The notes beneath the pieces are model-generated. The model was not told the origin of the DNA and did not search any database. It worked only from the letters and a program-made list of their open reading frames with translations. Below are positions 5,307-30,527 of a stretch of DNA of 32,000 bases, in pieces (within the stretch, counting starts at the first letter, position 1; each line of letters starts with the position of its first letter). Position numbers and translations under genes: made by a program. Source of the DNA: Lamprocystis purpurea DSM 4197 (GTDB lineage: Bacteria; Pseudomonadota; Gammaproteobacteria; Chromatiales; Chromatiaceae). Where the stretch lies: positions 17,265-49,264 of the forward strand of contig NZ_KB902522.1 in the NCBI RefSeq assembly GCF_000379525.1. The letters run 5' to 3'.

Positions 5307-6156
5307 GGTTCGGCTCGGTCGGTCGGTCGCCCGCGTTGCCCCAGTCGGCGAGGGCCAGCATGATGCGATTGACGATGGTGCGGGTGGGTTCGATATTGTC
5401 GGGGTTGTGCAGCAGCAGGTCGCGGTTGATCTCGATCGTGAAAGGGTGTTTGCCGCGCAGATCCTGGGGGTCGAAGCGGCTCAGCGAGTTGATCCCGGTG
5501 TAGGGGTGATTGAAACGCAGCACGTCACAGAAGTTGAAGTCGACGTCCAGGTCGCCGATGCTGGTCTCCACGATCTCGGCCAGCGTCAGCAGGAGTTCGC
5601 GCGCGGCGAAACAGTCATTGGGCGGATGCCCCTTCTCGTCGCCGGCATTGCCGAACATGAACAGCGGCCGCAGTTCCCCGCGATCCGCCGAGCTGCCGGT
5701 GCCGATCCCCGGCATGGTGTGGCAAAAGACGACTTTTTCGATCACCGGGCTCAGCAGCAGTTCGGCCAGCCGCTGCCGATGCGGGCGGATGTAGCGGTCG
5801 ATCACCTGCTGGCGGACTTGCTTGGGCAGGCCGCGATCCGACTGATAAATCTTGATGCCCTGACTGGTGAGGGTCTTCACCGCCCCGTCGGCGTCCAGAT
5901 CGTCGCAGGTCCGGTTGGGATCGGCATGCGCCCGCCAGATCAGAAAGCGCAGAATGTGCGGGGCGGCGGGCAGGTCCAGATAGATCTCGTCGGAGAACTC
6001 GTCGGAGTCTTCGCGGCGGTCCCCGGGGGTGAACTTGGGGTGCAGGTAGGACTTGACCTCATCCGGTGTCAGGTGGCCGCCGTGCGGTAACTCCAGGAGC
6101 ACGGGGATCCTGCCTGGGGTGTACTCGAATGGATGGACAGCGAAGGGCTGACTCAC
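5254..6156 (-). CDS. N-formylglutamate amidohydrolase (FGase) family hydrolase
   Basis: LELPHGGH…, RAHADPNR and CHTMPG motifs match the metal-ligand and DxNR pattern of the FGase family as I recall it. The start overlaps the ATP-grasp stop (ATGA at 6153-6156). Confidence 0.65.
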   Translation of the reverse strand: MSQPFAVHPFEYTPGRIPVLLELPHGGHLTPDEVKSYLHPKFTPGDRREDSDEFSDEIYLDLPAAPHILRFLIWRAHADPNRTCDDLDADGAVKTLTSQGIKIYQSDRGLPKQVRQQVIDRYIRPHRQRLAELLLSPVIEKVVFCHTMPGIGTGSSADRGELRPLFMFGNAGDEKGHPPNDCFAARELLLTLAEIVETSIGDLDVDFNFCDVLRFNHPYTGINSLSRFDPQDLRGKHPFTIEINRDLLLHNPDNIEPTRTIVNRIMLALADWGNAGDRPTEPNHARPPQRDRADDTADAR

Positions 6157-7466
6157 AACGCGATACCTGCAACCAAGTGCTTCGATTCGAAGGATGCCAG
6201 GAGGCCGGCATGGGTTTGCGGGTCCCCGTCACTGGCGACCGCGGCGTAGAGGCGCGTGATGCCGTCCGCGCGTGGATCATAACAGGCCCCGACCGGGATC
6301 AGCTCGCGGCGATGGATCTCCTGCCGGAAGTGATCGAGCAGTTCGGTGGGGGTGCCGGGAAAGCAGAAATAGCCGGTCGTGAGTTGCGGCCGGCGATGGC
6401 GGGTCGCCAGATAGTCGCCGAGCAGGAAGAAGGGCGTGGAACCGTTGAGACGGAAATTGGGGTCGATGAACCAGACCGCGCCGGCTCCATCCTCGAGCAG
6501 GTCCAGGCCGCAGACGCCATACCAGCCCAGTGCCGCGGCGGCCCGCGCCACCTGATCGCAGATCCGCGCGACCGGCGCTGGGGGCAGCCAGGCCAGATCG
6601 ATGAGGTTCCCCGCGTAGCGCCCGGCCGCCACCCGCTGTACCGAGCCGCCGATATAGCGAATGTGCCCGCGCCGGGTCACCTGTAACTGGACGTTGTAGT
6701 TGTGGCGGATGGACTCGATCAAGGGCTCGACTTTCACCGGACGGCCGCGCAAGCGGTGTTGTGCCTCGCGGACCTGGGTCTCGCGCCGACACAGCACCAC
6801 TCCGTCGCCGCCGCCGCTGGGTTCGGTCAGCTTGAGTACGAACGGCAGTTCCCAGCGCTCACGCCACTGGCCGTCGGCGAAGGCCTGGGCGTCCAGGGTC
6901 TCGTGGCGCAGCACGTGCGGGGTCAGTTCCGCGATGCGGCCTTTGTCGTTGAGCCGCACCACGAGGTGGGGATCGGCGAGATAATAGCGCTCGGCCGGGA
7001 GATGGGCGCTGTCGAACGGGTGGGGGGAGACGATGCGGTGGCGGGGGAATTCGGCCGCGCGCTGCCGGTAGCCGGTCGCTCCGGCATAGCGGATGACGGG
7101 GCCGAACTGACCCAGGAAATGCTCCCTGAAATAGCCGTTCCAATAGTCGGAAAGGTCCGTGGTCAGGTCCACCCCGGCAGCGTCGGCCAGGGTCAGAAAC
7201 TCCCCGCCCAGCAGCATGAAGCGCGCGGCCTGGCAACTGGCATAGCGCGGTCCGCGCAGAAAGAAGTAGTCGAAATCGCCGCGGCGCGGCTCATCCGGGG
7301 TGTAGAGCGGATAGCGCGGCAGATGCAGGGCCGGGCCGGGGAGGGCATAGAGGTCTGAAAAGGTCCGCCCGGTGAATCGGGGCCACGGGAGCCCCGGGCC
7401 CAGGGGTAACCGGGTCGCGTGTCGGCGGCGGTCTGCTTGGCCTTGAGGTCGGCGCGGGGTGTCCAC
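6153..7466 (-). CDS. ATP-grasp-fold protein (predicted amide/peptide ligase)
   Basis: The C-terminal half has an ATP-grasp-like pattern: VLKLTEPSGGGDGVVLC, YGVCGLDLLEDGAGAVWFIDPNFRLNGS. The N-terminal third is unassigned. Confidence 0.55.
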   Translation of the reverse strand: MDTPRRPQGQADRRRHATRLPLGPGLPWPRFTGRTFSDLYALPGPALHLPRYPLYTPDEPRRGDFDYFFLRGPRYASCQAARFMLLGGEFLTLADAAGVDLTTDLSDYWNGYFREHFLGQFGPVIRYAGATGYRQRAAEFPRHRIVSPHPFDSAHLPAERYYLADPHLVVRLNDKGRIAELTPHVLRHETLDAQAFADGQWRERWELPFVLKLTEPSGGGDGVVLCRRETQVREAQHRLRGRPVKVEPLIESIRHNYNVQLQVTRRGHIRYIGGSVQRVAAGRYAGNLIDLAWLPPAPVARICDQVARAAAALGWYGVCGLDLLEDGAGAVWFIDPNFRLNGSTPFFLLGDYLATRHRRPQLTTGYFCFPGTPTELLDHFRQEIHRRELIPVGACYDPRADGITRLYAAVASDGDPQTHAGLLASFESKHLVAGIAL

Positions 7467-7654
7467 AATGGGCCCTCCGTCCGCTTAGGGTTACGTCAGG
7501 ATGGGCGGATCTTTCAGCGGTTGGCGGGTCGATGCAACCTTTTTTTCCCGCGTAAGAGCGTTTCGTGTAGCAACTTGCGAGTGGGTGGACAGGACGAAGT
7601 ACCGGTGTCCACTGTGCTGACGCGGCGCGGTATGGTCCGAGCACCCGCGCGCGA

Positions 7655-9040
7655 GTGGCGTATACTCGCGAACATTCGCTAACGGCGGGCAGGGGGCAGT
7701 TGGTGGCGCAAGACGACGGTCCAAGAGACGTCGCTGATCGGATCGCCCGCACCTGGGCCGCCGATAGGTCGCTCCAGCTCGACCGGGAGCGGCTCGCTTA
7801 TTTGAGCGGCATCCATGCCTTCCTGGAACTGAATCCGGACCCCGTTCTCACCGAGGAGCAGTTGCGCGATATCTTCGGACTGCTCAACGACATCGTGCAA
7901 GGCGAGACCGGGGCGGTCGCGCAGCGCGCCACTTATGCGATCGACGCACTGTGCGCACAGTACCTGCTCGTCCGGTCCGATTTCGGTGGTGTTTCGACGG
8001 CGGGCGAGTTTACTTTGAGCCCCTTGGGCAAGACCCTGGCTGAATGGTTTGGAGCGCAAGAGGGCCTTGATCGCGAGGGGCTGGAAGTGATGCTCACGCG
8101 TATCCGTGGGGACCTCGCCGGGGTCCGTCAGGCCGCGCTTCTGGGCGGGGACGAGACCCATTGGCGCGCCCGGGTGGTGAGCCCACTGAAGCTCACGGTC
8201 GCCGGACTCGTTGAGATGATCGACCGTCGCCAGCGGGGGATGGATGTCCAGCAGCAAGAGATCCGCGAGCAGATCGGCCAGTTGTTGGAGGCCCAGTGGT
8301 TCGAGGCCATTGCGCGTTGCGAGACGCTGTTGCAGAACACCGGTGTGACCCTGCAGGAGCTGAACCATACCCTGATGTCCGAGACTGAGGGGGTCGCGAA
8401 TTTGCTCAACGAGATTTTCGAGGCTGCCGACGATGCCGATCAGGACGCTGCGCTGGATGCCGTCAGCTATGTCCGTACCCAGATCGAGCGGGTCGCCGCC
8501 TGGGGTGACAGCCGATTTCAGTCGTGGTCAGCCTACTATCAGAACGTGCATGAGTTTATTCGCACGATCGTCCGGGTCGACCGCGATCGGGCCCTGCGGG
8601 CGCGCTTGCGTGATGGGCTCAAAAGCTACACCGAGTTACCCTGGCATCTGCGTTGCGCCGCCCAGACCCCCTATCGCCACCTGCGGGAGCCGGAGTCCGG
8701 TCTGGACACCAAGGCCGTGGTTCGTCGGCGGACTGAGCGCGACGATAGGCTCGTTGACGCGTTAGCCGAAACCGATCCGCTGGAGCGGGTCTTTGCTGCC
8801 CTGCATGCACAGATGAACCAGACTGGCCGCCTCGACCTGTGGGATCTGTTGCACGAACGGCTTCCCAGCCATTCGGACGAGGAGCTGTTTCTGATGGCGG
8901 GTGCGTTGGTTAGATGGATGTTGGCGCAGGGGGAGCCGCTGCCGCCCCAGGGTTGGCAATGGATACCGCTCGGCCGCCGTCTGGAGGTGCAGAATCTGGT
9001 CGTCGAGCGGACCGCCAGGGAAGCACAGCGCGATGGATGA
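7655..9040 (+). CDS. MukF-like kleisin (JetA/MksB-type subunit of a Wadjet-like condensin)
   Basis: Blocks collinear with my recollection of E. coli MukF: GGDETHWRARVVSPLKLTVAG, QQQEIREQIGQLLEAQWFEAIARCETLL, NVHEFIRTIVRVDRDRALRARLRDGLKSY. The GTG start at 7655 is uncertain; GTG at 7703 is an alternative. Confidence 0.8.
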   Translation: MAYTREHSLTAGRGQLVAQDDGPRDVADRIARTWAADRSLQLDRERLAYLSGIHAFLELNPDPVLTEEQLRDIFGLLNDIVQGETGAVAQRATYAIDALCAQYLLVRSDFGGVSTAGEFTLSPLGKTLAEWFGAQEGLDREGLEVMLTRIRGDLAGVRQAALLGGDETHWRARVVSPLKLTVAGLVEMIDRRQRGMDVQQQEIREQIGQLLEAQWFEAIARCETLLQNTGVTLQELNHTLMSETEGVANLLNEIFEAADDADQDAALDAVSYVRTQIERVAAWGDSRFQSWSAYYQNVHEFIRTIVRVDRDRALRARLRDGLKSYTELPWHLRCAAQTPYRHLREPESGLDTKAVVRRRTERDDRLVDALAETDPLERVFAALHAQMNQTGRLDLWDLLHERLPSHSDEELFLMAGALVRWMLAQGEPLPPQGWQWIPLGRRLEVQNLVVERTAREAQRDG

Positions 9041-9743
9041 CGATCGTTATCACAGTCTTGAGTCCGTAATCTCAGACCCGCTGTTTCCCTGCATTGACCA
9101 TCGCCTGCGCTGCGGCTTTCATGTGGACAGCGACGACATCGCCGATTACGAGTTCTTGCTCTACGCGGCGGACTGGTTGCAAGGCTTTTACGCCGGCTAT
9201 CAGTGCCGTTTGATTCAAGCCCCTGAAGGTTATTGGTATCTGCGCTCGGAGGGCGAATTGCTCGGACACCGCCGGCTGAGCTTGGCTGAGATGCTGGTTG
9301 GTCAAGTGCTGGCCTTGATGCACATGGACCCGGTCTGGCTGAGCCAGACTGGGTGGATTCCGCGTACCAAGGTCCTGGAAACCCTGGAACATCTGCTCGG
9401 GCGTGAGCGCCTGGCGGCGCAACTGGCCCCGCGCAGCCGCGCCCGTGAACACCACGCGGACGACCGCCGTATCCGCGAAGCGGTGGACAAGGCCCTCAAC
9501 GGGCTGGAGGCACTGGGTTTCGTGCGCCAGCGGCGCGATACGGCCGAATTGTTGCCCCGGCGGCCACTGATGCGCTTCGTCGCCGCGGTCCGCGGTTCCG
9601 CCGATCCGAGGGAGGCGTTGGAGCGATTGGTATTGGAAGGAGAGGTGGAATTCGGCGATCCCGCGCGGGATGCCTCCGAGGCCCCGGATGACCCCGCCGT
9701 CGCCGTGCTCCCCGACGACGGCGAGGACCCGGATGAGCGTTAG
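9033..9743 (+). CDS. MukE-like KITE subunit (JetB/MksE-type)
   Basis: SDPLFPCIDHRLRCGFHV…FYAGYQCRLIQAPEGYWYLRS and VRGSADPREALERLVLEGEV parallel E. coli MukE blocks; acidic C-tail. The ATG overlaps the upstream stop (ATGGATGA). Confidence 0.85.
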   Translation: MDDDRYHSLESVISDPLFPCIDHRLRCGFHVDSDDIADYEFLLYAADWLQGFYAGYQCRLIQAPEGYWYLRSEGELLGHRRLSLAEMLVGQVLALMHMDPVWLSQTGWIPRTKVLETLEHLLGRERLAAQLAPRSRAREHHADDRRIREAVDKALNGLEALGFVRQRRDTAELLPRRPLMRFVAAVRGSADPREALERLVLEGEVEFGDPARDASEAPDDPAVAVLPDDGEDPDER

Positions 9744-12700
9744 GGCACGGATCAGCCGGCTGCTGTTGCTCAACTGGAAAGGGTTGTTTTTTCAGCCCTT
9801 CGAGCTGCACGAAGCGGTTACCGCACTGGAAGGCGAGAACGGGGCCGGCAAGACCACGGTCATGATTGCCGCCTTTGTCGCGCTGTTACCGGATCCGCAA
9901 CGGCTGAGTTTCCGCAATATCGGCGAGGGTGAGGGTAGCGGTGACGGTGATCGGGGCATCTACGGCCGTCTGGGTGACAAGGGGCCAAGCTACAGTCTGC
10001 TCGATCTGCGCACCGGCGACGGTGCCCGCGTCGTAGCCGGGGTCTGCCTGCTGCGTGGCGCCTCGCCGCATATCGAATTCAAGCGCTTCGTGGTTGAGGG
10101 TCTGTCGGTGGACCAGGACTTGGAGGCCTTGGTGCTGCTGCGAGACGGGGACAACGAGCGTATTCCTGATCTAGTTGAACTGCGCGAGGCGTTCGCCCAA
10201 ACCGGCGCGAGCATGCGCCTCTACGAGACCGCCGGACGTTACTGCGGACATCTGCACGAATTAGGCATCCTGCCCATGCGTATGGAGCAGTCGCAAGACC
10301 GCCAGCGTTTCCACCAGATGCTGCATACCAGCATGTACGGCGGCTTCTCCGGGGCACTGCAAAAGGGCTTGCGCGACTATCTGCTCAACGAAGACGAACG
10401 TCTGCGCAACCATGTCGTGCGCATGCGCGAAAACCTGGACGCCTGTCGCATCACCCGTCGGCGTATTGCCGAGGCCGACGCACGCTATCGGCTGATCGCC
10501 GAGGTCTTTCGGTTCGGGTGGGGTATGGTGGAGGCCGCTTTCCACGGTACCCGGCTGTTCGCCGAAACCCGTCGGGTGAGCGCCGCTGAGGCCCGTGCAG
10601 GCCATCGGCACTGTCGCCTGCTGCTCAGGGAGGCAGCGTTGGAGCATGAGCGGCTGATCCGTCGTCAGGCGGAGATTCAGCGCACCTTGGTGCCCCTGCA
10701 GGCGGCGGACCGAGAGACCGCCGAGCTGTTGGAGCGCTGCCAACGGGCGCGCCGTCTACGCACCGAGTTGGACAACCTGAAGCCCCGTCGCGTGGCGCAG
10801 GAGCAAGCCCTGGCGTTGACCGAGCACGCCTGTGAGGCCGCCCAATCTGCGGTGGCAAACGCCCGTGAGCGCCATCGGCACGAACAACAGGAGCGCGACG
10901 TGCTGACGGGCAACCTGGCCAACGCCCAGGACGCGTTCGCGGCCATCGCCTCCAAAGTGGGGCAGTACCACGCCGCCTTGACCAGTCTGAACGACGCCCG
11001 CGCCGCGCTGCCCGACCGGGAGTTGGATCCCGACCGGCTGGACGGCGTGCTCGTTGAGTGCGAGGACCAGTGGCAGACCGCCCTGACGGCGGTGTCGAGC
11101 ACGCAGCAATCGTTGGACGGTGCTGAAACCCGCCGCCAGCGGTTTGATACGTTACTCGCCGTCCTGGTCCGTCAGGCGGGGCATGCAGTGGCTGAGCACG
11201 AAGCCGCGGCCACCGCGTGTCAAGTGGATGCGGAACTGCGGGACCTGGAGGAGCGCGTGGCCCGTGCCCAGGATCTGCCGGAGCGCATCCAACAGGCCGA
11301 GGTGCGGGCACGCACCCAAGCCGACCTGCGTCGGCAACTTCAGCATCTGGTGCCCAGGTGTGGCCCACTGGATCGCGCCAATCAGGTGCGCGAGGCGCAT
11401 GCGCTGCAGGCCCGGCGCAGCCGTGCATTGGGCGTCGAGTTGGGCGATCTGAGCGCGCGTTGCGCGGAGCATCGCCGCGTGCGCGACCTGGCTGGCCAGC
11501 GCACCGAGACCCTGGAGCGGGACCTGGAGACTTGGCGCGGGGTCCAGACCCTGGCCGATGAACTGCGGGCTCTAGACGAGTGGCTGATCGATGGGTCAGA
11601 GACTTTGGAACTCCTTCGGGTCGAGTTGGTGCGGCAGGACGACGCGCTCGGCAGTCGGCTGAGAGAACTGGACGAGCAGCGTAAGCAGTTCGTTGAAGAA
11701 GCGGAACAACTGGAGTTTGGCGGCGGACGGCTCGACGAGTCGTTGGCCAGTCTAGCCGACCGGCTCGACGGCCAATTGGTGGCTGAGCGCTTCGATGCCG
11801 TACCGGCCGCGGAGGCGGCCATGATCGAGGCGCGCCTCGGTCCCCTGCATTCGGCCGTGCTGGTCTACGACATCGCCGCAGCCGCAGCGACCGCGGTCGG
11901 GGTGGAGCGGCGCCCAGAGCATCTGTGGCTGGTCCCAGCCGGGGAGCTGGCCGGCCCCCCGCCGGGGCAGACCCTGGGTGACAGTGAATTGGTGCAGATG
12001 GGAACTGTCTGGCGTCTGAGTCGGCAGCCGCACCATCCGGTGGTGGGCCGGGTGGCGCGCGATCAGGAGATCGCCCGCTTACGTACGGCAGTCCAGGTGT
12101 GCGAGGCGGAGCGCGACGGGCTGCGTGGCAAGCGCGTGCGCTTACGCGGTCATCTCCAGCTAGTCGGGCGGCTAGCCGCCGAGGTGCGCTGGCTCATGCT
12201 GCCGTCCCCGGAGATGGAACTGCGCAATCAGCGCCGGATTGCAGGCGAGCGCGGCCAACAATTGCAGCGCGACGAGGCCGCCCTGGCGGCACTGAAGCTC
12301 GAACGGACCCTGGCCGAGGAGATCGGCGTGGCTTTGGAGCGCTGCCTCCCCGATGCCGGTCTGCTCGACGAGGAAGACTGGTCGACCATTCTCCTGGTGC
12401 TACGCCGGGAGCGCGAGGCGGTCCAGGCGGCGCGGGCGCTGCTGGAGCGGTCGCAAGCCGACATCAAGACCCTGCGCGAGGGCTTTCTGGAGTTGCAGCA
12501 AGCCCCGCCCGATTGCGCCTACCTGGAGAATCTGCATCGGCGACAGACCGCCGCTCGGCAGATACTCGACTATTGGTCCAAGGCGAGACACCTGCTCAAG
12601 GACCTTGCCGAGCGCCGACTCCATTTCGCCTATGCCGACCAGGAGCCGCTGCTCAGGGAGCAGGATGGTGCACTAGGGGAATTGCGCGAGATGCTCGATG

Positions 12701-14133
12701 CGCTCCGGCAGCGGGTCGCCGTTCTCGAAAAAACGAAGGACCAGGCGGAACAGTCTCTGGAGCGGGCGCGCGCGGCGCACAACAGCGCAGACGCCGCGCT
12801 CAAGGCCACGGCTGCAAGCTGGGACGAACGAGCGAACCAACTCGCTGAGACCGGCGAGGATGGTTCGGCCGAGGGTCTGGCGGCGGCCGAGCGGCTGCGC
12901 GCCGACGCGGCGGCCGAGCTGGCGCAGGCGGATCGCGAGGACCGTCAGCTCCATGCGGATGTAGCAGTCGCTGCAAACTGTGTCGATCAGGCCGACAAGG
13001 AGCAGGCAAGGACTCGTGACGCCTGGCGCAAGACTCTGATAGAACTGCGCCCCAATTGGCGTAACTGGATCGGTTTGCGGCGCGAGGCCGCCCGGCTCGG
13101 CGTGTTGGACCGCCTCGTACGCGTAGCCGAGAGCTATCAGGCTTTGGGTCCGCCCAATGTCATGGGGCTGGCCAGCGAGCGCCGCGGCCAGTTGGGAGAA
13201 GCCGTGAAGAACGCCGACGGCGGGATGGATCTGGCACAGCAGCTCGCGCGGGGTCCGGGTGCCGCATCCGCCGAAGGTACGGCTGGACTTCGCGATCTGC
13301 GTGCTTGGGGTCTCGTGCGCGGGTTTCTGGAGCAAAGCATACCGCGCGACATCGCTCAATCGGACGACCCCCAGGTCGCGCTGGAGCAGATTGGCCAGCA
13401 CCTCACGCTGTTGCGCGAGCGACTGCTGGACCAGGAGCAGTCGCTACGGCACAGCACCGAAGAAATCGCCAACAGCATCCAGGTCAAGATCCGTCGGGAG
13501 GAGGCGCGGATCCACGGCCTCAATCGGGGGCTTGCGCGCGTGCGCTTCGGGTCCATCAGGGGGGTGCGCATCCATCTGGAGCGACAGCCCATGATGCTGA
13601 AGCTGCTCGACGCCATGCGCACTCAACCCGACCTGTTCGAGCAAGACGCCCCGCTGGAGGATGCACTCGCTGCCGTCTACCAACACCTAGGCGGCGGTCA
13701 GATTCAGGGCGAGCATCTGCTCGACTATCGCCAATACATCCGCATTGGCGTACAGGTGCAGCGCCTCGGCCGCGACGCCTGGATGGAGGCCCGCGCCGGA
13801 GCACTCTCCACCGGAGAGTCGATCGGTGTGGGTGCCGCCGTATTGGTGGTCATCCTTGATGCCTGGGAGCAGCAGGCGGCGCTGCTCAAGGGGCGCAAGG
13901 GCGGGCAGGCATTGCGCTTCCTGTTTCTCGACGAGGCCAACCGGCTGAGCCCCGAATCGCTCGACACGCTGACCGAGCTATGCGAACAGATGCAGGTTCA
14001 ACTGCTCGCCGCCGCGCCCGCAGCCGATCGTGGCCGCCGCGGACATATTTACCGCCTGGTTCGGCGCACCGACAGTACAGGTGCGGAGGAAGTCATCGTG
14101 CGCGGCCGGCGGATGCGTGACCTCGATCCATGA
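9733..14133 (+). CDS. MukB-like SMC-family ATPase, 1466 aa (JetC/MksF-type)
   Basis: N-terminus LLLLNWKGLFFQPFELHEAVTALEGENGAGKTTVMIAAFVALLPD, with Walker A at 9832-9858. It has a long Arg/Glu/Leu/Ala coiled-coil middle. The C-terminus carries ALSTGESIG, Walker B FLFLDEA (13918-13938) and LCEQMQVQLLAAAP. Size and motifs are close to MukB. Confidence 0.9.
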   Translation: MSVRARISRLLLLNWKGLFFQPFELHEAVTALEGENGAGKTTVMIAAFVALLPDPQRLSFRNIGEGEGSGDGDRGIYGRLGDKGPSYSLLDLRTGDGARVVAGVCLLRGASPHIEFKRFVVEGLSVDQDLEALVLLRDGDNERIPDLVELREAFAQTGASMRLYETAGRYCGHLHELGILPMRMEQSQDRQRFHQMLHTSMYGGFSGALQKGLRDYLLNEDERLRNHVVRMRENLDACRITRRRIAEADARYRLIAEVFRFGWGMVEAAFHGTRLFAETRRVSAAEARAGHRHCRLLLREAALEHERLIRRQAEIQRTLVPLQAADRETAELLERCQRARRLRTELDNLKPRRVAQEQALALTEHACEAAQSAVANARERHRHEQQERDVLTGNLANAQDAFAAIASKVGQYHAALTSLNDARAALPDRELDPDRLDGVLVECEDQWQTALTAVSSTQQSLDGAETRRQRFDTLLAVLVRQAGHAVAEHEAAATACQVDAELRDLEERVARAQDLPERIQQAEVRARTQADLRRQLQHLVPRCGPLDRANQVREAHALQARRSRALGVELGDLSARCAEHRRVRDLAGQRTETLERDLETWRGVQTLADELRALDEWLIDGSETLELLRVELVRQDDALGSRLRELDEQRKQFVEEAEQLEFGGGRLDESLASLADRLDGQLVAERFDAVPAAEAAMIEARLGPLHSAVLVYDIAAAAATAVGVERRPEHLWLVPAGELAGPPPGQTLGDSELVQMGTVWRLSRQPHHPVVGRVARDQEIARLRTAVQVCEAERDGLRGKRVRLRGHLQLVGRLAAEVRWLMLPSPEMELRNQRRIAGERGQQLQRDEAALAALKLERTLAEEIGVALERCLPDAGLLDEEDWSTILLVLRREREAVQAARALLERSQADIKTLREGFLELQQAPPDCAYLENLHRRQTAARQILDYWSKARHLLKDLAERRLHFAYADQEPLLREQDGALGELREMLDALRQRVAVLEKTKDQAEQSLERARAAHNSADAALKATAASWDERANQLAETGEDGSAEGLAAAERLRADAAAELAQADREDRQLHADVAVAANCVDQADKEQARTRDAWRKTLIELRPNWRNWIGLRREAARLGVLDRLVRVAESYQALGPPNVMGLASERRGQLGEAVKNADGGMDLAQQLARGPGAASAEGTAGLRDLRAWGLVRGFLEQSIPRDIAQSDDPQVALEQIGQHLTLLRERLLDQEQSLRHSTEEIANSIQVKIRREEARIHGLNRGLARVRFGSIRGVRIHLERQPMMLKLLDAMRTQPDLFEQDAPLEDALAAVYQHLGGGQIQGEHLLDYRQYIRIGVQVQRLGRDAWMEARAGALSTGESIGVGAAVLVVILDAWEQQAALLKGRKGGQALRFLFLDEANRLSPESLDTLTELCEQMQVQLLAAAPAADRGRRGHIYRLVRRTDSTGAEEVIVRGRRMRDLDP

Positions 14134-15116
14134 GCGCGCTCAGCTGGCAGGACCCGGATCTGCAATGGACCTTGGTCACACTGCTCGAGTTCGGCGAGAT
14201 CCGGCGCAATGCCGCCAATGCAACCCTGGTGGACTGGTTGCGCGAGGCCGGATGGGTTGGTCAAGGTTCGCGTCGGGATCTGTTTCTGCTTCGTCCGGCC
14301 AAGCGGGCGGCCGTGGCGGTCCGACTGGCCGAAGGCTGGCCCGACTGGCAACGCGATCTGGCCGCTTTGGCAGCCGCGGGCCTTCCCTGCGACGCGGCCG
14401 GGCTGCGTCAGTTGCGCCGGTGCGGAGTACCCCTGGCCGCGCTTCCGCCGCGATTGCATCGCAAGACCTGGATGGCCCGCTTCGGGGCTCATTCCAAGGC
14501 GGGTACACCGGATGCGCTGCCGCCGCCGACTCTGGTGCTCACCGATGACGACCTGCTGCGGCTGCGCCCGAATCGGGGGCTGGCGCTGCGCTTCGCCGAC
14601 GGGGAAGTACGTGACTGCGACGATTGGGTACGCCCGCTTGGTGAGTTGGTTATCCCCCAGCGCGCCCTGTGCGATGGTCTCTCCCTGTGCGGTACCCTTC
14701 CCCGATGGGTGATGACGGTCGAGAATCTGGGTGCCTACCTGGATCTGCCGGCGCCGTCCCAGGCCCTGGTGGTCCATCAACCGGGTTGGAACTGTCGGCT
14801 CGCCCGGCACCTGATCGGCCTGCTGCCGGCGGAGGTCTCCTGGTGGCATTTCGGCGATCTTGATCCCGAAGGGCTCGCGATCTTCGCGGCGCTCGGCGGC
14901 GAACTGCGCCGTCCGCGCTTATTTCTGCCGGATTGGTGGAGCGACTATCTGGACACGCACGCGTTGCCGCTCGGACCGGGACAGGGTTGGCCCGGAACTG
15001 AGTCCGACCGGGGTGCCGGACTACTTGCACTGCTGCGGCGCCGCGGCCGGTGGCTCGAACAGGAGGCGATCCTGCTTGATCCGCGGCTGCCGGACAGCTT
15101 GGCGGGCATCACCTAG
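14130..15116 (+). CDS. JetD/MksG-type Toprim (DUF2220-like) nuclease subunit, 328 aa
   Basis: Toprim signature: acidic E in VMTVENLGAY (GAG at 14721-14723) and HFGDLDPEGLAIF (DxD at 14857-14865), then WLEQEAIL near the C-terminus. The ATGA start overlaps the jetC-like stop. Confidence 0.8.
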   Translation: MSALSWQDPDLQWTLVTLLEFGEIRRNAANATLVDWLREAGWVGQGSRRDLFLLRPAKRAAVAVRLAEGWPDWQRDLAALAAAGLPCDAAGLRQLRRCGVPLAALPPRLHRKTWMARFGAHSKAGTPDALPPPTLVLTDDDLLRLRPNRGLALRFADGEVRDCDDWVRPLGELVIPQRALCDGLSLCGTLPRWVMTVENLGAYLDLPAPSQALVVHQPGWNCRLARHLIGLLPAEVSWWHFGDLDPEGLAIFAALGGELRRPRLFLPDWWSDYLDTHALPLGPGQGWPGTESDRGAGLLALLRRRGRWLEQEAILLDPRLPDSLAGIT

Positions 15117-15131
15117 CCGGTGTCGTCAACC

Positions 15132-16919
15132 TCAGAACTTCCAGACCAATGGCACCAGCAGCACCGTCACCGTACCCACCAGCAGGGTCAGTGGCGCACC
15201 CACCCGAGTGAAATCCAGGAAGCGGTAGCCGCCGACGTTGAAGACCATGAGATTGGTCTGATAGCCGATCGGGGTGGCGAAGTCGGCCGAGGCGGCGACC
15301 ATGATGGTCAACATGAAGGGTAAGGGTGAGACCCCCATCCCGGCCGCGGTCTGCAGGGCGATCGGGAACATCAGGACGGCGGCCACGTTGTTGGTCGCAA
15401 AGGAGGTCAGGAGCGAGGTGGTCACATAGATCAGGGCCAGGCTGGTCCAGGGATCCTTGGCGGCGAGCCCGACCAGCCCGCCCGCCACCAGGCTGGCGGC
15501 GCCGGTTTTCTCCAGGGCGGCGCCGATGCCGAAGGAGGTGGCGATGACGATCAGTACCTGCCAATCCGGCGCCCGACGGGCGATACGGCCGTCGGTACAG
15601 CCGGTGATGATCATGAGCCCGGCCGCCAGCAGGGAGGCTTCCAGCATACTGAACCAGCCGATGGTGACCACGGCCACCATGGCCGCGGCGATACCGATGG
15701 CCAGCGGGGCGCGCCGATGGTCGACCGGGTGCGAGTCGCCGATGCGGCTGACCAGCAGGAAATCGCGTGAGTTCTTCTGCTGTTCCACGAAGTCCGGCCG
15801 GGTTTCCAACAGCAGGGTGTCGCCGGCGGCGAGTTCGATATCGCCGATCTTGCGGTCGATCCGCGCGCCGTTGCGGGCCAGGGCGATGATCACCGCGTCA
15901 TAGCGATTGCGGAACCGGCCGGCGCGTACGGTATAGCCGACCAGTGGGCATTTGTCGGAGAGCACGGCCTCCACGAAACCGCGCCCGGGTCTGGGGGTAT
16001 CGAGCTTGAAGACCTGATCCGTGGCCGGAATCAGACCGCGGGTAAGCTGCAAATCCATCACCGAGTCGACGATGCCGACGAACACCAGCCGGTCATCGGC
16101 GTGCAGGATCTCCTCCGCCGAGACCGCGGGCAGCACCAGGTCGCCACGCTCGATCTCCGCCAGGAAGAGCCCCGGCAACTGGCGCAGTCCGGCGGCCTCG
16201 ACACTCTTGCCCACCAGCGGACTGCCGGGTTCGACCAGCATCTCCGCGGTGTACTGGCGCACGTCTTCATAGCTGTCGGCGGCCGGACGGCGGCGCGGCA
16301 ACAGCCAGTGACCGACGGTGAGCAGATAGATGAAGACGGCGATGGTGACCGGTACGCCGATCCACGCGGGCTCGAACAGGCTCAAGCCTTCGCCGCCCAC
16401 CCGTTGTGCATACAGCGAATTCACGACCAGATTGGTGCTGGTACCGATCAGGGTGCAGAGACCGCCGGCGATGGTGGCGTAGGACAGCGGAATCAGGAGT
16501 CGCGACAGCTCCAGCCGATTGCGTTTGGCCCAGTCCTGGACGGCGGGGATGAAGATGGCAACGACCGGCGTGTTATTGAGAAAGGCACTCAAGACTGCCA
16601 CCGGCGCCATGACCCGCAGTCGGGCGTGGGTCTCGCCCTTGGGTCGGCCGAGCAATCCCTGGCCGATCCAGTTGACCGCACCCGTCTCGGTGAGACCGGA
16701 GACCACCACGTAGAGGACGCCGACGGTGAGCATCCCCTCGTTTGAGAACCCGATCAGCGCCTCGTCGGCCGTGAGGATGCCGGTCACCAGCAACAGCGTC
16801 AGGGCGGCGGCGGTCACCAAATCCGGTGCCGCGCGCGTGCCGATGAAGAGCGCAAAACAGCAGGCGACCAACCCGAGGCTGAACCAGCCTTGCCATCCCA
16901 AGTGCAGTGCCGCGTCCAT
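15132..16919 (-). CDS. SLC13/DASS-family permease with two central TrkA-C (RCK_C) domains
   Basis: Polytopic N- and C-terminal halves flank two repeats of a TrkA-C-like unit: …VEPGSPLVGKSVEAAGLR…DDRLVFVG… and …LSDKCPLVGYTVRAG…GDTLLLE…. Start taken at the internal Met (MDAALHLGW), 4 nt after the upstream gene's stop. Confidence 0.8.
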   Translation of the reverse strand: MDAALHLGWQGWFSLGLVACCFALFIGTRAAPDLVTAAALTLLLVTGILTADEALIGFSNEGMLTVGVLYVVVSGLTETGAVNWIGQGLLGRPKGETHARLRVMAPVAVLSAFLNNTPVVAIFIPAVQDWAKRNRLELSRLLIPLSYATIAGGLCTLIGTSTNLVVNSLYAQRVGGEGLSLFEPAWIGVPVTIAVFIYLLTVGHWLLPRRRPAADSYEDVRQYTAEMLVEPGSPLVGKSVEAAGLRQLPGLFLAEIERGDLVLPAVSAEEILHADDRLVFVGIVDSVMDLQLTRGLIPATDQVFKLDTPRPGRGFVEAVLSDKCPLVGYTVRAGRFRNRYDAVIIALARNGARIDRKIGDIELAAGDTLLLETRPDFVEQQKNSRDFLLVSRIGDSHPVDHRRAPLAIGIAAAMVAVVTIGWFSMLEASLLAAGLMIITGCTDGRIARRAPDWQVLIVIATSFGIGAALEKTGAASLVAGGLVGLAAKDPWTSLALIYVTTSLLTSFATNNVAAVLMFPIALQTAAGMGVSPLPFMLTIMVAASADFATPIGYQTNLMVFNVGGYRFLDFTRVGAPLTLLVGTVTVLLVPLVWKF

Positions 16920-21448: not shown

Positions 21449-21770
21449 ACCGGCCGTCTTGGCAGTCCGAGCGTCCGTGCTAGACTCCCTGTGAACCGCG
21501 CCGTTCAGGCGCCACGCTGCCGCGAGGGCATCACTATGGGCTTTACCCCGGATTTGCCGCGGGTGGACCTGCGCGTTCCGCCCGCTGTCAGATTGGATGA
21601 CGCGCTGTTCTTTGCCATCTGTCAGGCCAATCGGGAGTACCGGATCGAGCGCAGTGCCAGAGGAGATATCCGCATCATGCCGCCAACGGGAGGGATCACG
21701 GGGAAACGCAACTCGGATCTGATCATTGATCTGGGTCTCTGGGCCAGACAGAACGGTCGCGGTGTCGTGT
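21449..21770 (+). repeat. Direct repeat R1, copy 1 (Uma2 promoter region plus the 5' 235 bp of the gene)
   Basis: Aligns by eye over about 320 bp with 23459-23779, roughly nine in ten positions identical. Confidence 0.9.
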
Positions 21771-22141
21771 TCGATTCGTCGACCGGTTTTGTGCTGCCGA
21801 ACGGTGCCGTACTTTCACCTGATTGCTCCTGGGTACTGCGCGAGCGATTAGCGCGGCTGAGTGACAAGGAAAAAAAGCAGTTTCTGCCCCTGGCTCCGGA
21901 CTTCGTTATTGAATTGGCATCGGTGAGCGATCACCGGACCGAACTCATTGCCAAAATGCGCGAATACCGGGCGAATGGCGTGCGGCTCGGCTGGCTGATC
22001 CTGCCGACAGCTCGGCAGGTCTATCGTTTTCCCGAGCAAGGGGCGGAGGAGTGCCTGGATGACCCTGGTACCCTAACCGATGAGACGGTCCTGCCGGGTT
22101 TCCGGCTGGATCTGTCCGGGGTCTGGGCGGAGGGGTTCTGA
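21536..22141 (+). CDS. Uma2-family (DUF820) putative restriction-type endonuclease
   Basis: …GDIRIMPPTGGITGKRNSDLI… and the PD-(D/E)xK-like core APDFVIELASVSD…K…Y…GVRLGWLILP. Start taken at the internal ATG (MGFTPD). Confidence 0.8.
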   Translation: MGFTPDLPRVDLRVPPAVRLDDALFFAICQANREYRIERSARGDIRIMPPTGGITGKRNSDLIIDLGLWARQNGRGVVFDSSTGFVLPNGAVLSPDCSWVLRERLARLSDKEKKQFLPLAPDFVIELASVSDHRTELIAKMREYRANGVRLGWLILPTARQVYRFPEQGAEECLDDPGTLTDETVLPGFRLDLSGVWAEGF

Positions 22142-24104: not shown

Positions 24105-24704
24105 TCAAAGTTCGTCCAAGATAGCCTGCGCCCAGGCGTTGATTGGTCCATAGGTCTTCACCAATTGGCCGTCGGTGGTGCGGAAAAGGAGCCGTGCAAG
24201 GCAATCTTCGACTGAGTTGTCATAGACGTAGGCGCGATTTGCCAGACGCACAGCAACCCCGCAGTTGATCAGCGAACGCTTGTAGCGGTCAATGATCTTG
24301 GCGATCGGCACATCATGGCCGCCTTGCATGACCCGCAAGGCGACGCGCTTGGCGTTGATCGAGGGGTCATCGGTGCCGACGAAAAATACCCGGACGAAAA
24401 ACCCTGCGCCCCGCGCGCGGCGGATGAAATCCAGCTTGTCAGGCATGGACAGCACGGTCTCGAACGCAAGGCTACGTCCCTGGGTCAGACAGGTTTCACG
24501 TATCTCCGCGGCACGGCGCGCAGCCTGGAGCACGGCCGCTGGGGCATTCCAGTCGCCGAACTCGTCCCGCGCAATGTAATCCGGATTCACATACGCGCAG
24601 CCGCCCATCCACTCATGGCGGAGCAGCTGCTCAGTAATAGATGTCTTGCCCGCCCCATTTGGGCCGGCGACCACGATCAGTCGCGGCCTTTCAGGTGCGT
24701 TCAT
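24105..24704 (-). CDS. Zeta-toxin-family / COG4185-type P-loop kinase-like ATPase (putative toxin)
   Basis: Walker A LIVVAGPNGAGKTS, then SLAFETVLS, FFVGTDDPSINAKRVALRVMQGGHDVP and YVYDNS, collinear with the zeta-toxin-like family as I recall it. Confidence 0.8.
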   Translation of the reverse strand: MNAPERPRLIVVAGPNGAGKTSITEQLLRHEWMGGCAYVNPDYIARDEFGDWNAPAAVLQAARRAAEIRETCLTQGRSLAFETVLSMPDKLDFIRRARGAGFFVRVFFVGTDDPSINAKRVALRVMQGGHDVPIAKIIDRYKRSLINCGVAVRLANRAYVYDNSVEDCLARLLFRTTDGQLVKTYGPINAWAQAILDEL

Positions 24705-29839: not shown

Positions 29840-30085
29840 TCGGTAACTTCGGCAACGGAAATACTATGTATCAAGAAATGTGGGTTAGGCTTTACGACTG
29901 CTCCGTAATGCAAAGACGCAGCCATTCCACGAACGAAAAATGCTGGACTTAGGTACCATTTGCGGCTGCAAGAACGCTAACCGCCCGCACCAGCCTGGGC
30001 CGCGCGACGAGTGGGTTCCGCCGCCGCACCGGCTTAATCTCATGTGCAAACGTCGTATTTGCTATCTTGAAAAGAGGATATACAG

Positions 30086-30436: not shown

Positions 30437-30527
30437 AATTCAGGGGCATGGGGTCAGGTTTTGCCTTAAGAACAGAGAGCCTAACTTAGTCATTGTTAAT
30501 AATCTAGTGAATAGTATAGGCAAATAA

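What the first reader, a model, noticed from the sequence alone, without database searches (positions are those of the whole stretch)
7655..15116. MukF/MukE/MukB-like condensin operon with a fourth JetD/MksG-type Toprim gene (Wadjet-like anti-plasmid system)
Four + strand genes are translationally coupled by overlapping start and stop codons: ATGGATGA at 9033-9040, an 11-nt overlap at 9733-9743, and ATGA at 14130-14133. The first three products are not merely SMC/kleisin-like. Block by block they resemble the canonical MukF, MukE and MukB of enterobacteria. The MukE-like protein has …PLFP…FYAGYQCRLIQAPEGYWYLR…DPREALERL. The MukB-like protein has an N-terminal LLNWKGLFFQPFEL…GENGAGKTT…AAFVALLPD and a C-terminal ALSTGESIG…FLFLDEA…LCEQMQVQLLAAAP, and at 1466 aa is close to MukB length. 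The fourth gene carries a Toprim signature (VENLG; HFGDLDPEG), as in JetD/MksG, the nuclease of Wadjet systems that cleave circular plasmid DNA. MukBEF proper is known as a chromosome-organising complex with no nuclease partner. A MukFEB-proximal set wired to a JetD gene in a high-GC genome is therefore a useful bridge between housekeeping Muk and defensive Wadjet, and its Wadjet subtype is unclear from sequence reading alone. GC content matches the flanks, so it does not look recently acquired.
Basis: partly seen in the sequence, partly recalled or inferred. Interest (0 to 1): 0.75.

Follow-up and report, generated by a model that had tools for sequence, protein, structure and literature searches.

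The report
MukBEF-like condensin operon with nuclease
A purple sulfur bacterium carries a four-gene operon whose first three proteins closely resemble E. coli's chromosome-folding machine MukBEF and whose fourth is a DNA-cutting enzyme of the plasmid-defence system Wadjet; this is a real but already catalogued, untested relative that shows what MukBEF probably looked like before it lost its nuclease.

Summary
Four overlapping + strand genes (7703/7655-15116) in a Lamprocystis purpurea chromosome encode MukF-, MukE- and MukB-family proteins and a 328-aa MksG/JetD-type nuclease. MukB passes NCBI's MukB equivalog cut-off and aligns end to end with solved MukB. The nuclease model (pLDDT 94.7) has C. 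glutamicum MksG as its best PDB fold match, and all metal-binding residues are invariant.

The system is not new as a kind, though. The orthologous Thiococcus pfennigii operon is listed as 'FEBG' in Bürmann et al. 2025 (Data S1). In their tree its SMC sits in an all-FEBG clade that is sister, at bootstrap 100, to E. coli MukB.

My scan found the nuclease family in 165 species genomes across many phyla. It is nearly always fused to F-E-B and sometimes sits in defence islands.

The most likely function is plasmid restriction by loop extrusion followed by cleavage. That is inferred, not shown. PADLOC's type I-III models largely miss the operon, and NCBI labels it 'chromosome partition'.

By-product: Aeromonas, which has canonical MukBEF, keeps an intact orphan nuclease of this family 5-7 kb downstream of mukB.

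The parts
7703..9040 (+). Gene A: MukF-like kleisin. It is 445 aa from GTG 7703. The longest ORF starts at GTG 7655 and gives 461 aa.
   Evidence: Pfam hits are MukF_M 104.7 bits, KicB (MukF winged helix) 42.9 bits and MukF_C 39.9 bits, all above the gathering score. NCBIfam MukF scores 272.9 bits, below the equivalog cut-off of 407. The PDB search returns only MukF chains, E 2.6e-44. Identity to E. coli MukF is 29.6%. NCBI's start is 7703.
9033..9743 (+). Gene B: MukE-like KITE subunit, 236 aa. It overlaps the end of gene A by 8 nt.
   Evidence: Pfam MukE scores 114.6 bits and MksE 85.2 bits. NCBIfam MukE scores 115 bits against a cut-off of 250. The PDB search returns only MukE chains, E 2.6e-29. 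Identity to E. coli MukE is 33.7%. NCBI names it 'chromosome partition protein MukE', WP_020506932.1.
9733..14133 (+). Gene C: MukB-like SMC ATPase, 1466 aa. It overlaps the end of gene B by 11 nt.
   Evidence: The NCBIfam MukB equivalog scores 783.3 bits, above the cut-off of 699, and aligns residues 1-1462 to profile positions 1-1468 of 1486. Pfam hits are MukB N-terminal 192.3 bits and MukB_hinge 91.6 bits. It aligns with the solved P. thracensis MukB over residues 4-1454 against 4-1459, E 1e-121. NCBI names it 'chromosome partition protein MukB', WP_157640342.1.
9832..9858 (+). Walker A motif GENGAGKTT of the MukB-like protein (residues 34-42)
   Evidence: The motif is conserved across the family.
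11662..12099 (+). MukB-type hinge domain (residues 644-789 of C)
   Evidence: Pfam MukB_hinge PF16330 scores 91.6 bits. PDB MukB hinge chains 4mn4 and 2wmm match residues 649-789.
13804..13938 (+). ABC signature motif LSTGE (residues 1358-1362) through Walker B FLFLDEA (residues 1396-1402). The catalytic glutamate is E1401, which aligns with E. coli E1407.
   Evidence: The E1407Q hydrolysis mutant is described in PMC7617805.
14130..15116 (+). Gene D: MksG/JetD-type nuclease, 328 aa, with an N-terminal winged-helix/CAP-like domain and a C-terminal Toprim domain. It overlaps the end of gene C by 4 nt (ATGA).
   Evidence: Pfam JetD_C scores 30.8 bits against a gathering score of 22. PADLOC JetD type I scores up to 30.4 bits. 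The AlphaFold2 model has pLDDT 94.7 and pTM 0.82. The top Foldseek PDB hits are C. glutamicum MksG 8b7f (E 1.6e-7), Topo VI-A, and P. aeruginosa JetD 7til (E 3e-4). The protein is 100% identical to an NCBI 'Wadjet anti-phage system protein JetD domain-containing protein' from Lamprocystis purpurea.
14721..14723 (+). Toprim glutamate E198 (VENLG)
   Evidence: It is invariant in 45 of 45 family members. By motif position it corresponds to MksG E236, whose alanine mutant loses nuclease activity (PMC10123090).
14856..14864 (+). Toprim DxD, D243-L244-D245 (HFGDLDPEG)
   Evidence: It is invariant in 45 of 45 family members. The coordinates are corrected. By motif position it corresponds to MksG D279.
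15057..15065 (+). E310-Q311-E312 (WLEQE), the ExE pair
   Evidence: Q311 is invariant and E312 is at least 90% conserved. By motif it matches the two conserved glutamates (MksG E349/E351) proposed as alternative nucleophiles in JetD.
7467..7702 (.). Upstream intergenic region between the divergent 437-aa unknown gene and gene A. It presumably holds the promoter and 5' UTR.
   Evidence: This is the only sizeable non-coding gap of the unit. The consensus scan found no sigma-70-like site and no terminator anywhere in 7300-15400. That is compatible with a single transcript but does not prove one.

Best explanation
This is an intact chromosomal 'FEBG' operon of Lamprocystis purpurea. It is a Wadjet-group SMC defence system whose motor is of the MukBEF type.

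Shown here:
- The four genes encode a MukF-family kleisin, a MukE-family KITE, a full-length MukB-family SMC and a compact MksG/JetD nuclease.
- The SMC has intact Walker A, signature and Walker B motifs, a MukB-type hinge and MukB-length arms.
- The nuclease keeps all Toprim metal-binding residues.
- The genes are translationally coupled.
- The same module recurs in about 165 species genomes scattered over many phyla.
- The lineage is the nuclease-bearing sister of canonical MukBEF.

Inferred by analogy with E. coli GF4-3 and P. aeruginosa JetABCD, N. vireti type II Wadjet and C. glutamicum MksBEFG:
- A kleisin-bridged dimer of MukB2-E-F motor units loads on DNA and extrudes loops using ATP.
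- On a small circular replicon the two motors use up all the DNA and stall against each other, bending the intervening DNA.
- That state recruits or de-represses a dimer of the G nuclease, which makes a double-strand break.
- On the large chromosome extrusion never completes, so self DNA is spared.

The net effect is restriction of incoming plasmids.

Evolutionary reading, supported: canonical MukBEF of enterobacteria descends from such a system through loss or unlinking of G.
For: Family assignment:
- Pfam, NCBIfam and PDB sequence searches place A, B and C in the MukF, MukE and MukB families.

Nuclease:
- The AF2 model has pLDDT 94.7.
- The best PDB fold match is MksG 8b7f. Topo VI-A and JetD 7til also match.
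- E198, D243, D245 and Q311 are invariant, and the ExE pair is conserved, in 45 homologs. They match the residues mutated in MksG.

Coupling:
- The overlaps are 8, 11 and 4 nt.
- The B-G junction overlaps by 1-12 nt in 54 of 65 related loci.
- There are no internal promoter or terminator matches.

Module conservation:
- A MukB-like gene lies directly upstream of G in 75 of 80 loci.
- F-E-B-G is complete in 52 of 59 loci with enough upstream DNA.

Phylogeny:
- The Thiococcus pfennigii ortholog is listed as FEBG. Its G is P0016, 62% identical to D.
- Its SMC lies in an FEBG clade sister to {Endozoicomonas, E. coli MukB} with support 100.
- My head+hinge NJ tree gives the same topology.

Accessory or defence character:
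- The distribution is patchy across Gamma-, Beta- and Alphaproteobacteria, Myxococcota, Planctomycetota, Desulfobacterota, Acidobacteriota and Spirochaetota.
- The flanks differ in other Chromatiaceae.
- Seven loci hold decayed, 5'-truncated copies.
- Defence genes are neighbours in some genomes: Burkholderia pBPJTT (WYL, SAVED, IS21), P. ulcerans and S. stutzeri (PDC-S06, 967 bits) and Sorangium (PDC-M15A).

Mechanism by analogy:
- Circular-DNA sensing and cleavage have been shown for type I and type II Wadjet (PMC10889018 and 10.1101/2022.10.04.510915, listed; 10.1101/2025.03.10.642339; 10.1101/2023.11.03.565488).
Against: - No functional data exist for any member of this clade.
- In Lamprocystis the immediate neighbours are housekeeping genes (CorA, a formylglutamate-amidohydrolase-like gene, a CitMHS transporter, CofD), and GC matches the flanks. 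This copy therefore looks like a settled chromosomal gene set rather than an island.
- I could not determine whether the genome also has Smc-ScpAB, so a chromosome-organising role is not excluded.
- Canonical MukBEF dimers have a different geometry from type I Wadjet (PMC10586767). It is unknown how a Muk-type dimer would present DNA to G.
- D is too diverged to match solved JetD or MksG by sequence alone.
- PADLOC type I-III models hardly recognise A-C.
Confidence: 0.65

Rival explanations
1. Dual-use complex. FEB acts as a chromosome-organising condensin in Lamprocystis, as MukBEF does in E. coli or MksBEF in P. aeruginosa. The attached G nuclease adds plasmid restriction. This would be a living intermediate of the domestication path.
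For: - The MukB-like protein passes the MukB equivalog threshold and has MukB-length arms and a MukB-type hinge.
- The local context is housekeeping and GC matches the flanks.
- Reviews note that Wadjet motors probably also extrude chromosomal DNA, and that nuclease-less MksBEF helps segregation in P. aeruginosa.
- Part of the AcpP-contact patch of E. coli MukB is retained: W1117 and R1122 equivalents are present.
Against: - The patchy, horizontally scattered distribution and the decayed copies argue that the module is dispensable.
- K1114, C1118 and K1125 equivalents are not conserved.
- Presence or absence of Smc-ScpAB was not tested.
Confidence: 0.2
2. Pure housekeeping MukBEF. The fourth gene is an unrelated or vestigial neighbour with no role in the complex.
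For: NCBI annotates B and C as 'chromosome partition protein MukE/MukB'. The same labels, with chromosome-condensation GO terms, appear on the Burkholderia copy.
Against: - G overlaps the mukB-like stop codon (ATGA), and this junction is conserved in most of 65 loci.
- G co-occurs with the SMC gene in 75 of 80 loci.
- All its catalytic residues are invariant.
- MukF and MukE score far below the NCBI equivalog cut-offs.
- The SMC lies outside the canonical MukB clade.
Confidence: 0.05
3. The nuclease-SMC complex acts on something other than plasmids. Candidates are phage genomes, integrative elements, or chromosome dimers and catenanes. In the last case G would work as a topology-resolving enzyme, given its Topo VI-A/Spo11-like fold.
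For: The fold matches to Topo VI-A and Spo11 are nearly as strong as those to MksG and JetD. The target range of this clade is untested.
Against: - No tyrosine is invariant anywhere in the family, so a covalent topoisomerase-type mechanism is unlikely.
- MksG likewise lacks a 5Y-CAP tyrosine.
- Characterised relatives sense DNA circularity and size rather than sequence or origin.
Confidence: 0.1

Closest known systems
Canonical MukBEF (E. coli, Photorhabdus thracensis): chromosome-organising SMC complex
   Same: - The gene order is the same, mukF-mukE-mukB, with overlapping genes.
- All three subunit families match.
- The SMC is 1466 aa against 1486 aa and aligns end to end.
- It has a MukB-type hinge, the LSTGE signature and a MukB-like Walker B context.
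- MukE aligns along its whole length, including the acidic tail.
   Different: - A nuclease gene is fused to the operon.
- Identity to the E. coli proteins is only 30-34%.
- MukF and MukE score below the NCBI equivalog cut-offs.
- The phylogenetic position is sister to, not inside, the canonical clade.
- The host is a Chromatiaceae, outside the classical MukBEF taxa.
- The AcpP patch is only partly conserved.
FEBG operons of the MukBEF-sister clade catalogued by Bürmann et al. 2025 (Cell; PMC7617805, Data S1): Thiococcus pfennigii, Sulfurifustis variabilis, Massilia sp., Plasticicumulans lactativorans, Sorangium cellulosum, Bradymonas sediminis
   Same: - They share the four-gene architecture and gene sizes. 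In T. pfennigii MksB is 1467 aa and MksG 315 aa.
- T. pfennigii MksG (P0016) is 62% identical to D.
- Sorangium So0157-2 (L074) and many others appear among my loci.
   Different: Nothing essential differs. The window holds another member from a different Chromatiaceae genus. Lamprocystis itself is not in their table. The clade is listed there but is neither discussed nor tested experimentally.
Type I Wadjet JetABCD (E. coli GF4-3, P. aeruginosa PA14), type II (Neobacillus vireti) and C. glutamicum MksBEFG
   Same: - They have the same four-component logic: kleisin, KITE, SMC and a CAP+Toprim nuclease.
- The nuclease fold and catalytic residues match.
- They are the presumed source of the extrusion-then-cleavage mechanism.
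   Different: - A-C are not recognised by the JetA/B/C profiles. JetA gives no hit, JetB 14.7 bits and JetC 28.5 bits at the N-terminus only.
- They do not match solved JetA/B/C chains by sequence.
- The arms are MukB-length, about twice those of type I JetC according to 10.1101/2025.03.10.642339.
- The nuclease is shorter: 328 aa, against chains of 368 and 374 residues for solved MksG and JetD.
MksBEF without nuclease (P. aeruginosa)
   Same: It is a MukBEF-like SMC complex found in a genome outside the enterobacterial group.
   Different: It lacks G and is much more distant from MukB. Here G is present, and the core is of the Muk type.

Membership tests
Wadjet group (JetABCD / MksBEFG) | Co-directional operon encoding a kleisin, a KITE, an SMC ATPase and a Toprim nuclease | tested here: met
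   The four genes overlap at all three junctions.
Wadjet group (JetABCD / MksBEFG) | Nuclease subunit with an N-terminal CAP-like domain and a C-terminal Toprim domain, carrying the acidic metal-binding residues (E ... DxD) and the ExE pair | tested here: met
   The AF2 model has pLDDT 94.7. Foldseek matches MksG 8b7f at E 1.6e-7 and JetD 7til at E 3e-4. E198, D243 and D245 are invariant and E310/E312 conserved. These are compared with MksG E236, D279, E349 and E351.
Wadjet group (JetABCD / MksBEFG) | SMC subunit with intact ATPase motifs | tested here: met
   GENGAGKTT, LSTGE and FLFLDEA are all present.
Wadjet group (JetABCD / MksBEFG) | Placement within the Wadjet/Mks radiation in an SMC phylogeny | tested here: met
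   This rests on the ortholog. T. pfennigii MBK1700141.1 is in the published tree and is listed as FEBG. In my tree the window sequence clusters with Chromatiaceae and other G-linked MukB-like proteins.
Wadjet group (JetABCD / MksBEFG) | Assignment to type I, II or III by the standard profiles | tested here: not met
   PADLOC gives no JetA hit, JetB E 0.0034, JetC1 28.5 bits over 54 residues only, and JetD1 at most 30.4 bits. Pfam returns the Muk families, not DUF3375, DUF4194 or DUF3584. It is therefore a Wadjet-group system outside the three named types.
Wadjet group (JetABCD / MksBEFG) | Restricts or cleaves small circular DNA in an ATP-dependent manner | not testable with these tools
   This needs transformation or stability assays, or biochemical reconstitution.
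Canonical MukBEF | MukF, MukE and MukB family membership at ortholog (equivalog) level | tested here: inconclusive
   MukB scores 783 bits against a cut-off of 699 and passes. MukF scores 273 against 407 and MukE 115 against 250, so both fail. All three pass the Pfam gathering scores.
Canonical MukBEF | No associated MksG/JetD nuclease | tested here: not met
   Gene D overlaps the mukB-like stop codon. The literature states that MukBEF lacks MksG/JetD (PMC7617805).
Canonical MukBEF | Position inside the E. coli MukB clade | tested here: not met
   It belongs to the sister clade, both in the published ML tree and in my NJ tree.
Canonical MukBEF | AcpP-binding residues of the MukB joint (K1114, W1117, C1118, R1122, K1125; PMC8602292) | tested here: inconclusive
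   In the alignment the W1117 and R1122 equivalents are kept. K1114 aligns with W, C1118 with I and K1125 with A.
Canonical MukBEF | Replaces Smc-ScpAB and co-occurs with MatP, SeqA and Dam | not testable with these tools
   Only the 32-kb window is available.
Topoisomerase VI-A / Spo11 | Catalytic tyrosine in a 5Y-CAP domain | tested here: not met
   No tyrosine is among the invariant or nearly invariant columns of 45 family members.

The most novel reading that the evidence does not exclude
The line between 'housekeeping MukBEF' and 'defensive Wadjet' may be blurred on both sides.

The Lamprocystis-type FEBG would represent the ancestral state of MukBEF and may both organise the chromosome and restrict plasmids.

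Conversely, some canonical MukBEF systems may not have fully lost the nuclease. Throughout Aeromonas, an intact orphan gene of exactly this G family, with all catalytic motifs, lies 5-7 kb downstream of canonical mukFEB on the same strand. Related orphans occur in other Aeromonadaceae and in Motilimonas. If that orphan still works with MukBEF, a bona fide MukBEF would have a nuclease partner.
Probability: 0.2. Interest if true: 0.8.

Novelty: new member of a known kind. Interest (0 to 1): 0.5.

Why it matters
Current reviews describe the origin of MukBEF as unresolved. They list 'domestication of a Wadjet system by loss of the nuclease' as a hypothesis.

This operon belongs to the one lineage that still combines a genuinely Muk-type motor with the nuclease. 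The motor has a MukB-type hinge, MukB-length arms, and a MukF kleisin carrying the dimerising winged helix. That makes it the natural material for testing the hypothesis. Three questions follow:
- Does a Muk-type dimer sense plasmid circularity?
- Can FEB from this clade, with G removed, replace E. coli MukBEF?
- How does arm length relate to the plasmid size limit?

There is also a practical point. The clade escapes the type I-III defence-finder profiles and is labelled 'chromosome partition protein MukB/MukE' by NCBI, even on a Burkholderia defence island. Censuses of both defence systems and condensins therefore misclassify it.

The specific Lamprocystis copy adds little beyond the orthologs already catalogued.

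Tried and rejected
- The phmmer search of D against PDB sequences found no JetD or MksG, only noise at E 0.26 and above. The relationship needed Pfam and a fold search.
- tRNA and Rfam scans of the window found nothing, so there is no tRNA-linked island boundary.
- The promoter and terminator consensus scan of 7300-15400 found nothing.
- My first full-length NJ tree of the SMCs was mis-rooted. Two 'short' sequences (L011, L034) are truncated copies, not true short-type MksB. Long-branch attraction also pulled E. coli MukB towards the outgroup. I rebuilt the tree on head+hinge columns with a clean outgroup. It remains a simple distance tree and is weaker than the published ML tree.
- Retrieving the Thiococcus pfennigii contig through P0016 failed because the protein is not on record. 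The link to the published table rests on matching contig length (32,927 bp), gene length (315 aa) and organism.
- I considered whether the divergent upstream 437-aa gene (6153-7466, no Pfam hit) is a fifth component. I rejected this because it is conserved only in the near-identical MAG L001 and in no other locus.
- I considered a topoisomerase-like role for D and rejected it as the main model, because the family has no conserved tyrosine.
- I could not test for Smc-ScpAB, MatP, SeqA or Dam in the Lamprocystis genome.
- Searches for 'MukBEFG', and for Aeromonas + MukBEF + JetD, found no papers.

Full report
**1. What is in the window**

Region 7655-15116 holds four + strand ORFs of 461 (or 445), 236, 1466 and 328 codons.

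- ATGGATGA at 9033-9040.
- ATGAGCGTTAG at 9733-9743.
- ATGA at 14130-14133.

The quoted peptide motifs are all present. There are two slips. The first gene most likely starts at GTG 7703, behind a GGGGG run, which is also NCBI's start.

GC content is 0.635-0.687 in the operon and 0.656-0.670 in the neighbouring kilobases. A consensus scan found no promoter-like or terminator-like site inside the unit.

The window is Lamprocystis purpurea (Chromatiaceae). Proteins B, C and D are identical to NCBI proteins of that species.

**2. Identity of the four proteins**

Pfam results:
- A: MukF_M, KicB and MukF_C.
- B: MukE and MksE.
- C: MukB N-terminal and MukB_hinge.
- D: JetD_C.

NCBIfam scores against the equivalog cut-offs:

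| Protein | Model | Score (bits) | Cut-off (bits) | Result |
|---|---|---|---|---|
| C | MukB | 783 | 699 | passes |
| A | MukF | 273 | 407 | fails |
| B | MukE | 115 | 250 | fails |

C aligns with the MukB model along the whole protein.

Against all PDB sequences, A, B and C hit only MukF, MukE and MukB chains. They hit no JetA/B/C or other SMC chain. C aligns over residues 4-1454 with residues 4-1459 of Photorhabdus MukB. Identity to the E. coli proteins is 29.6%, 33.7% and 29.6%.

The ATPase motifs are intact and of the Muk type: LSTGE and LFLDEA.

PADLOC's Wadjet models nearly miss A-C. JetA gives no hit, JetB 14.7 bits and JetC 28.5 bits over the first ~55 residues. They touch D only weakly, with JetD type I at 30 bits or less.

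D has no sequence match among solved structures. An AlphaFold2 model built on 45 homologs is confident, with pLDDT 94.7 and pTM 0.82. Its best PDB fold matches are:
- C. glutamicum MksG (8b7f, E 1.6e-7).
- Topo VI-A.
- P. aeruginosa JetD (7til).
- Spo11.

E198, D243, D245 and Q311 are invariant in the family, and E310/E312 are conserved. By motif these correspond to the MksG residues E236, D279, E349 and E351 (PMC10123090). No tyrosine is conserved. D is therefore a hydrolytic MksG/JetD-type nuclease, not a topoisomerase.

**3. Surroundings**

The flanks are ordinary chromosomal genes:
- Upstream: holB-like, tatD, an AI-2E transporter, corA, a formylglutamate-amidohydrolase-like gene and an unknown 437-aa gene.
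- Downstream: a CitMHS/TrkA-C transporter, a 2OG oxygenase, cofD-like, an MdoG/FG-GAP protein, a Uma2 endonuclease, a trypsin-like protease, a zeta-toxin-like kinase, groEL and two Slp lipoproteins.

There are no tRNA genes and no Rfam matches.

Only the near-identical MAG L001 shares these flanks. Three other Chromatiaceae or gammaproteobacterial MAGs carry the operon at 59-77% protein identity elsewhere in their genomes.

**4. Distribution of the module**

A scan of one genome per species (185,579 species), using two motifs of D, found 165 genomes that encode a relative.

Among the best 80 loci:
- 75 have a MukB-like gene directly upstream of G.
- 52 of the 59 with at least 6.6 kb of upstream DNA have F-E-B-G on one strand.
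- The SMC is remarkably uniform in most, at 1465-1480 aa.
- The B-G junction overlaps by 4 nt in 36 of 65 loci and by 1-12 nt in 54 of 65.

Seven loci are decayed, with 5'-truncated SMC genes and no F or E. A minor branch couples the same G family to a short (~1020 aa) SMC in Gallionella, Sideroxydans, Thiobacillus and others.

The hosts span Gamma-, Beta- and Alphaproteobacteria, Myxococcota, Planctomycetota, Desulfobacterota, Acidobacteriota, Spirochaetota and more. Within genera such as Pseudomonas the module is sporadic.

In some genomes the neighbours are defence genes:
- WYL, SAVED and IS21 on the Burkholderia pyrrocinia megaplasmid.
- A PDC-S06 ATPase (967 bits) directly upstream in P. 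ulcerans and S. stutzeri TS44.
- PDC-M15A next to the Sorangium copy.

The family is rare on plasmids, appearing in 2 of 72,556 records. One of those two is really an Aeromonas chromosome.

This is the distribution of an accessory, horizontally moving module.

**5. Relation to what is known**

Bürmann et al. 2025 (Cell, PMC7617805) compiled Wadjet-group operons and an SMC tree. [quoted passage not shown]

Their Data S1 lists Thiococcus pfennigii NRSA01000020.1 as an FEBG operon. Its MksG is my hit P0016, which matches on three points: 315 aa, the same 32,927-bp contig, and 62% identity to D.

In their tree file the SMC of that operon sits in a clade with Sulfurifustis, Massilia, Plasticicumulans, Bradymonas and Sorangium. 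Every member of that clade that I looked up is FEBG. The clade is sister, with support 100, to {Endozoicomonas FEB, E. coli MukB AAC74010.1 FEB}.

My own head+hinge distance tree, rooted on the short-type SMCs, gives the same picture. Canonical MukB (E. coli plus Aeromonas) is sister to all long G-linked MukB-like proteins (support 87). The window sequence groups with Chromatiaceae MAGs and a Syntrophobacteraceae MAG (support 100).

The clade, however, is already in a published catalogue. It has not been discussed, named or tested. I found no paper using a term such as 'MukBEFG'.

Reviews still call the origin of MukBEF unresolved and propose domestication of a Wadjet system.

**6. Mechanism**

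Shown:
- The composition of the operon.
- Intact catalytic motifs.
- Translational coupling.
- Conservation of the module.
- Its phylogenetic position.

Inferred: the complex works like characterised Wadjet systems. A kleisin-bridged dimer of SMC motors extrudes DNA. Complete extrusion of a small circle stalls the motors and bends the DNA. The G dimer is then recruited or de-repressed and cuts.

One detail may matter. The MukE-like proteins of this clade share an N-terminal [F/Y]-x-[S/T]-L-E-x-V peptide that E. coli MukE lacks. In type I systems a short JetB N-terminal helix is predicted to bind the JetD CAP domain. This is a lead only.

Unknowns:
- Whether a Muk-type dimer geometry supports the same cleavage state.
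- Whether the complex also organises the chromosome.
- Whether Lamprocystis has Smc-ScpAB.

The AcpP-contact residues of E. coli MukB are only partly conserved.

**7. By-product**

A tblastn search of D against PLSDB hit an Aeromonas caviae replicon that is really a chromosome. An intact 341-aa member of the G family lies 7.1 kb downstream of canonical mukB (59% identical to E. coli MukB), on the same strand. It carries the VENKG, HFGDLD and WLEQE motifs.

The gene is present across the genus in more than 20 named species, diverging to about 50% identity. It lies 7.3 kb downstream of mukB in A. hydrophila and 5.4 kb downstream in A. bivalvium.

In a tree of G proteins it falls inside the long-type family.

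An exhaustive search of 1.84 billion representatives found only 196 relatives. The nearest outside Aeromonas are in Aeromonadaceae MAGs, Pseudaeromonas and Motilimonas. In Pseudaeromonas and Motilimonas the gene is not within 10 kb of mukB.

The published survey inspected only the genes directly flanking nuclease-less operons. Its single Aeromonas entry is an ordinary FEBG Wadjet, not the mukFEB locus.

This may be a relic of the FEBG ancestor retained next to canonical MukBEF. Whether it still works with MukBEF is unknown.

**8. Verdict**

This is a new member of a known, catalogued kind: the Muk-type, nuclease-bearing branch of the Wadjet group.

Interest is moderate. The clade is the best available handle on how MukBEF arose, and both defence-finder and annotation pipelines mislabel it. 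This particular copy adds little that the catalogued orthologs do not already offer, and nothing about its function has been shown.

Noticed in passing
L082 8581-9606 (Aeromonas caviae KAM479, NZ_AP026896.1); L084 10001-10990 (A. hydrophila); L085 and L086 10001-10984 (A. bivalvium): An intact orphan MksG/JetD-like gene of the same family as D (37% identity; VENKG, HFGDLD and WLEQE kept) lies 5.4-7.3 kb downstream of canonical mukFEB, on the same strand. It is separated from mukB by small variable genes, and in A. caviae by an IS200/IS605 element. It is conserved across the genus Aeromonas. It may be a relic of an FEBG ancestor of MukBEF. I found no paper that mentions it.
   Followed up: partly
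L087 10001-10969 (Motilimonas eburnea); L088 10001-11008 (Pseudaeromonas sharmana): The nearest relatives of the Aeromonas orphan outside the genus are also stand-alone genes, but they are not within 10 kb of mukB. In Pseudaeromonas an aspC-like aminotransferase follows directly. From my own knowledge, not checked here, aspC also lies a few genes downstream of mukB in E. coli.
   Followed up: partly
L016, L036, L037, L047, L050, L073, L076 (SMC gene ending next to position ~10000 or its equivalent): The same G family, here with CENLG instead of VENLG, is also coupled to a much shorter SMC (~1010-1030 aa) with LSGGE, plus diverged F and E, in Gallionella, Sideroxydans, Thiobacillus and others. 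This forms a separate deep branch.
   Followed up: partly
L003, L011, L020, L031, L040: These are decayed copies. A 5'-truncated MukB-like gene (about 620-1090 aa, or fragments) is still joined to an intact G gene, with no F or E upstream.
   Followed up: partly
L083 (Burkholderia pyrrocinia plasmid pBPJTT, NZ_CP091309.1, 76461-83855): A complete F-E-B-G operon lies on an 880-kb megaplasmid between WYL and SAVED-domain genes and an IS21. NCBI annotates it as 'chromosome partition protein MukE/MukB' with chromosome-condensation GO terms, and its F as 'hypothetical'. The same labelling applies to the Lamprocystis proteins. This is probably a systematic annotation error for this clade.
   Followed up: yes
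window 9033-9080 (N-terminus of B) and the equivalent region in 24 related loci: The MukE-like proteins of the FEBG clade share an N-terminal [F/Y]-x-[S/T]-L-E-x-V-[I/V]-x-D peptide, for example VFDSLEEV. E. coli MukE lacks the aromatic residue and the LE pair. It is reminiscent of the N-terminal JetB helix or 'IFDR' motif said to bind the JetD CAP domain in type I Wadjet.
   Followed up: no
window 30000-32000: GC content drops sharply to 0.42-0.50, against ~0.65 elsewhere. The stretch holds small unknown ORFs and an ORF of at least 292 aa (31122-32000, running off the window end). That ORF has several CxxC pairs and no Pfam match. It looks like the edge of a horizontally acquired island.
   Followed up: no
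window 21491-22141 (+) and 24105-24704 (-): A Uma2-family putative endonuclease and a zeta-toxin/AAA-kinase-like gene lie 6-9 kb downstream of the operon. They may be toxin-antitoxin or defence-related genes in an otherwise housekeeping stretch.
   Followed up: no
window 6153-7466 (-): A 437-aa ORF is transcribed divergently from the operon. It has no Pfam match and is conserved only in the near-identical MAG L001, not in other FEBG loci.
   Followed up: partly
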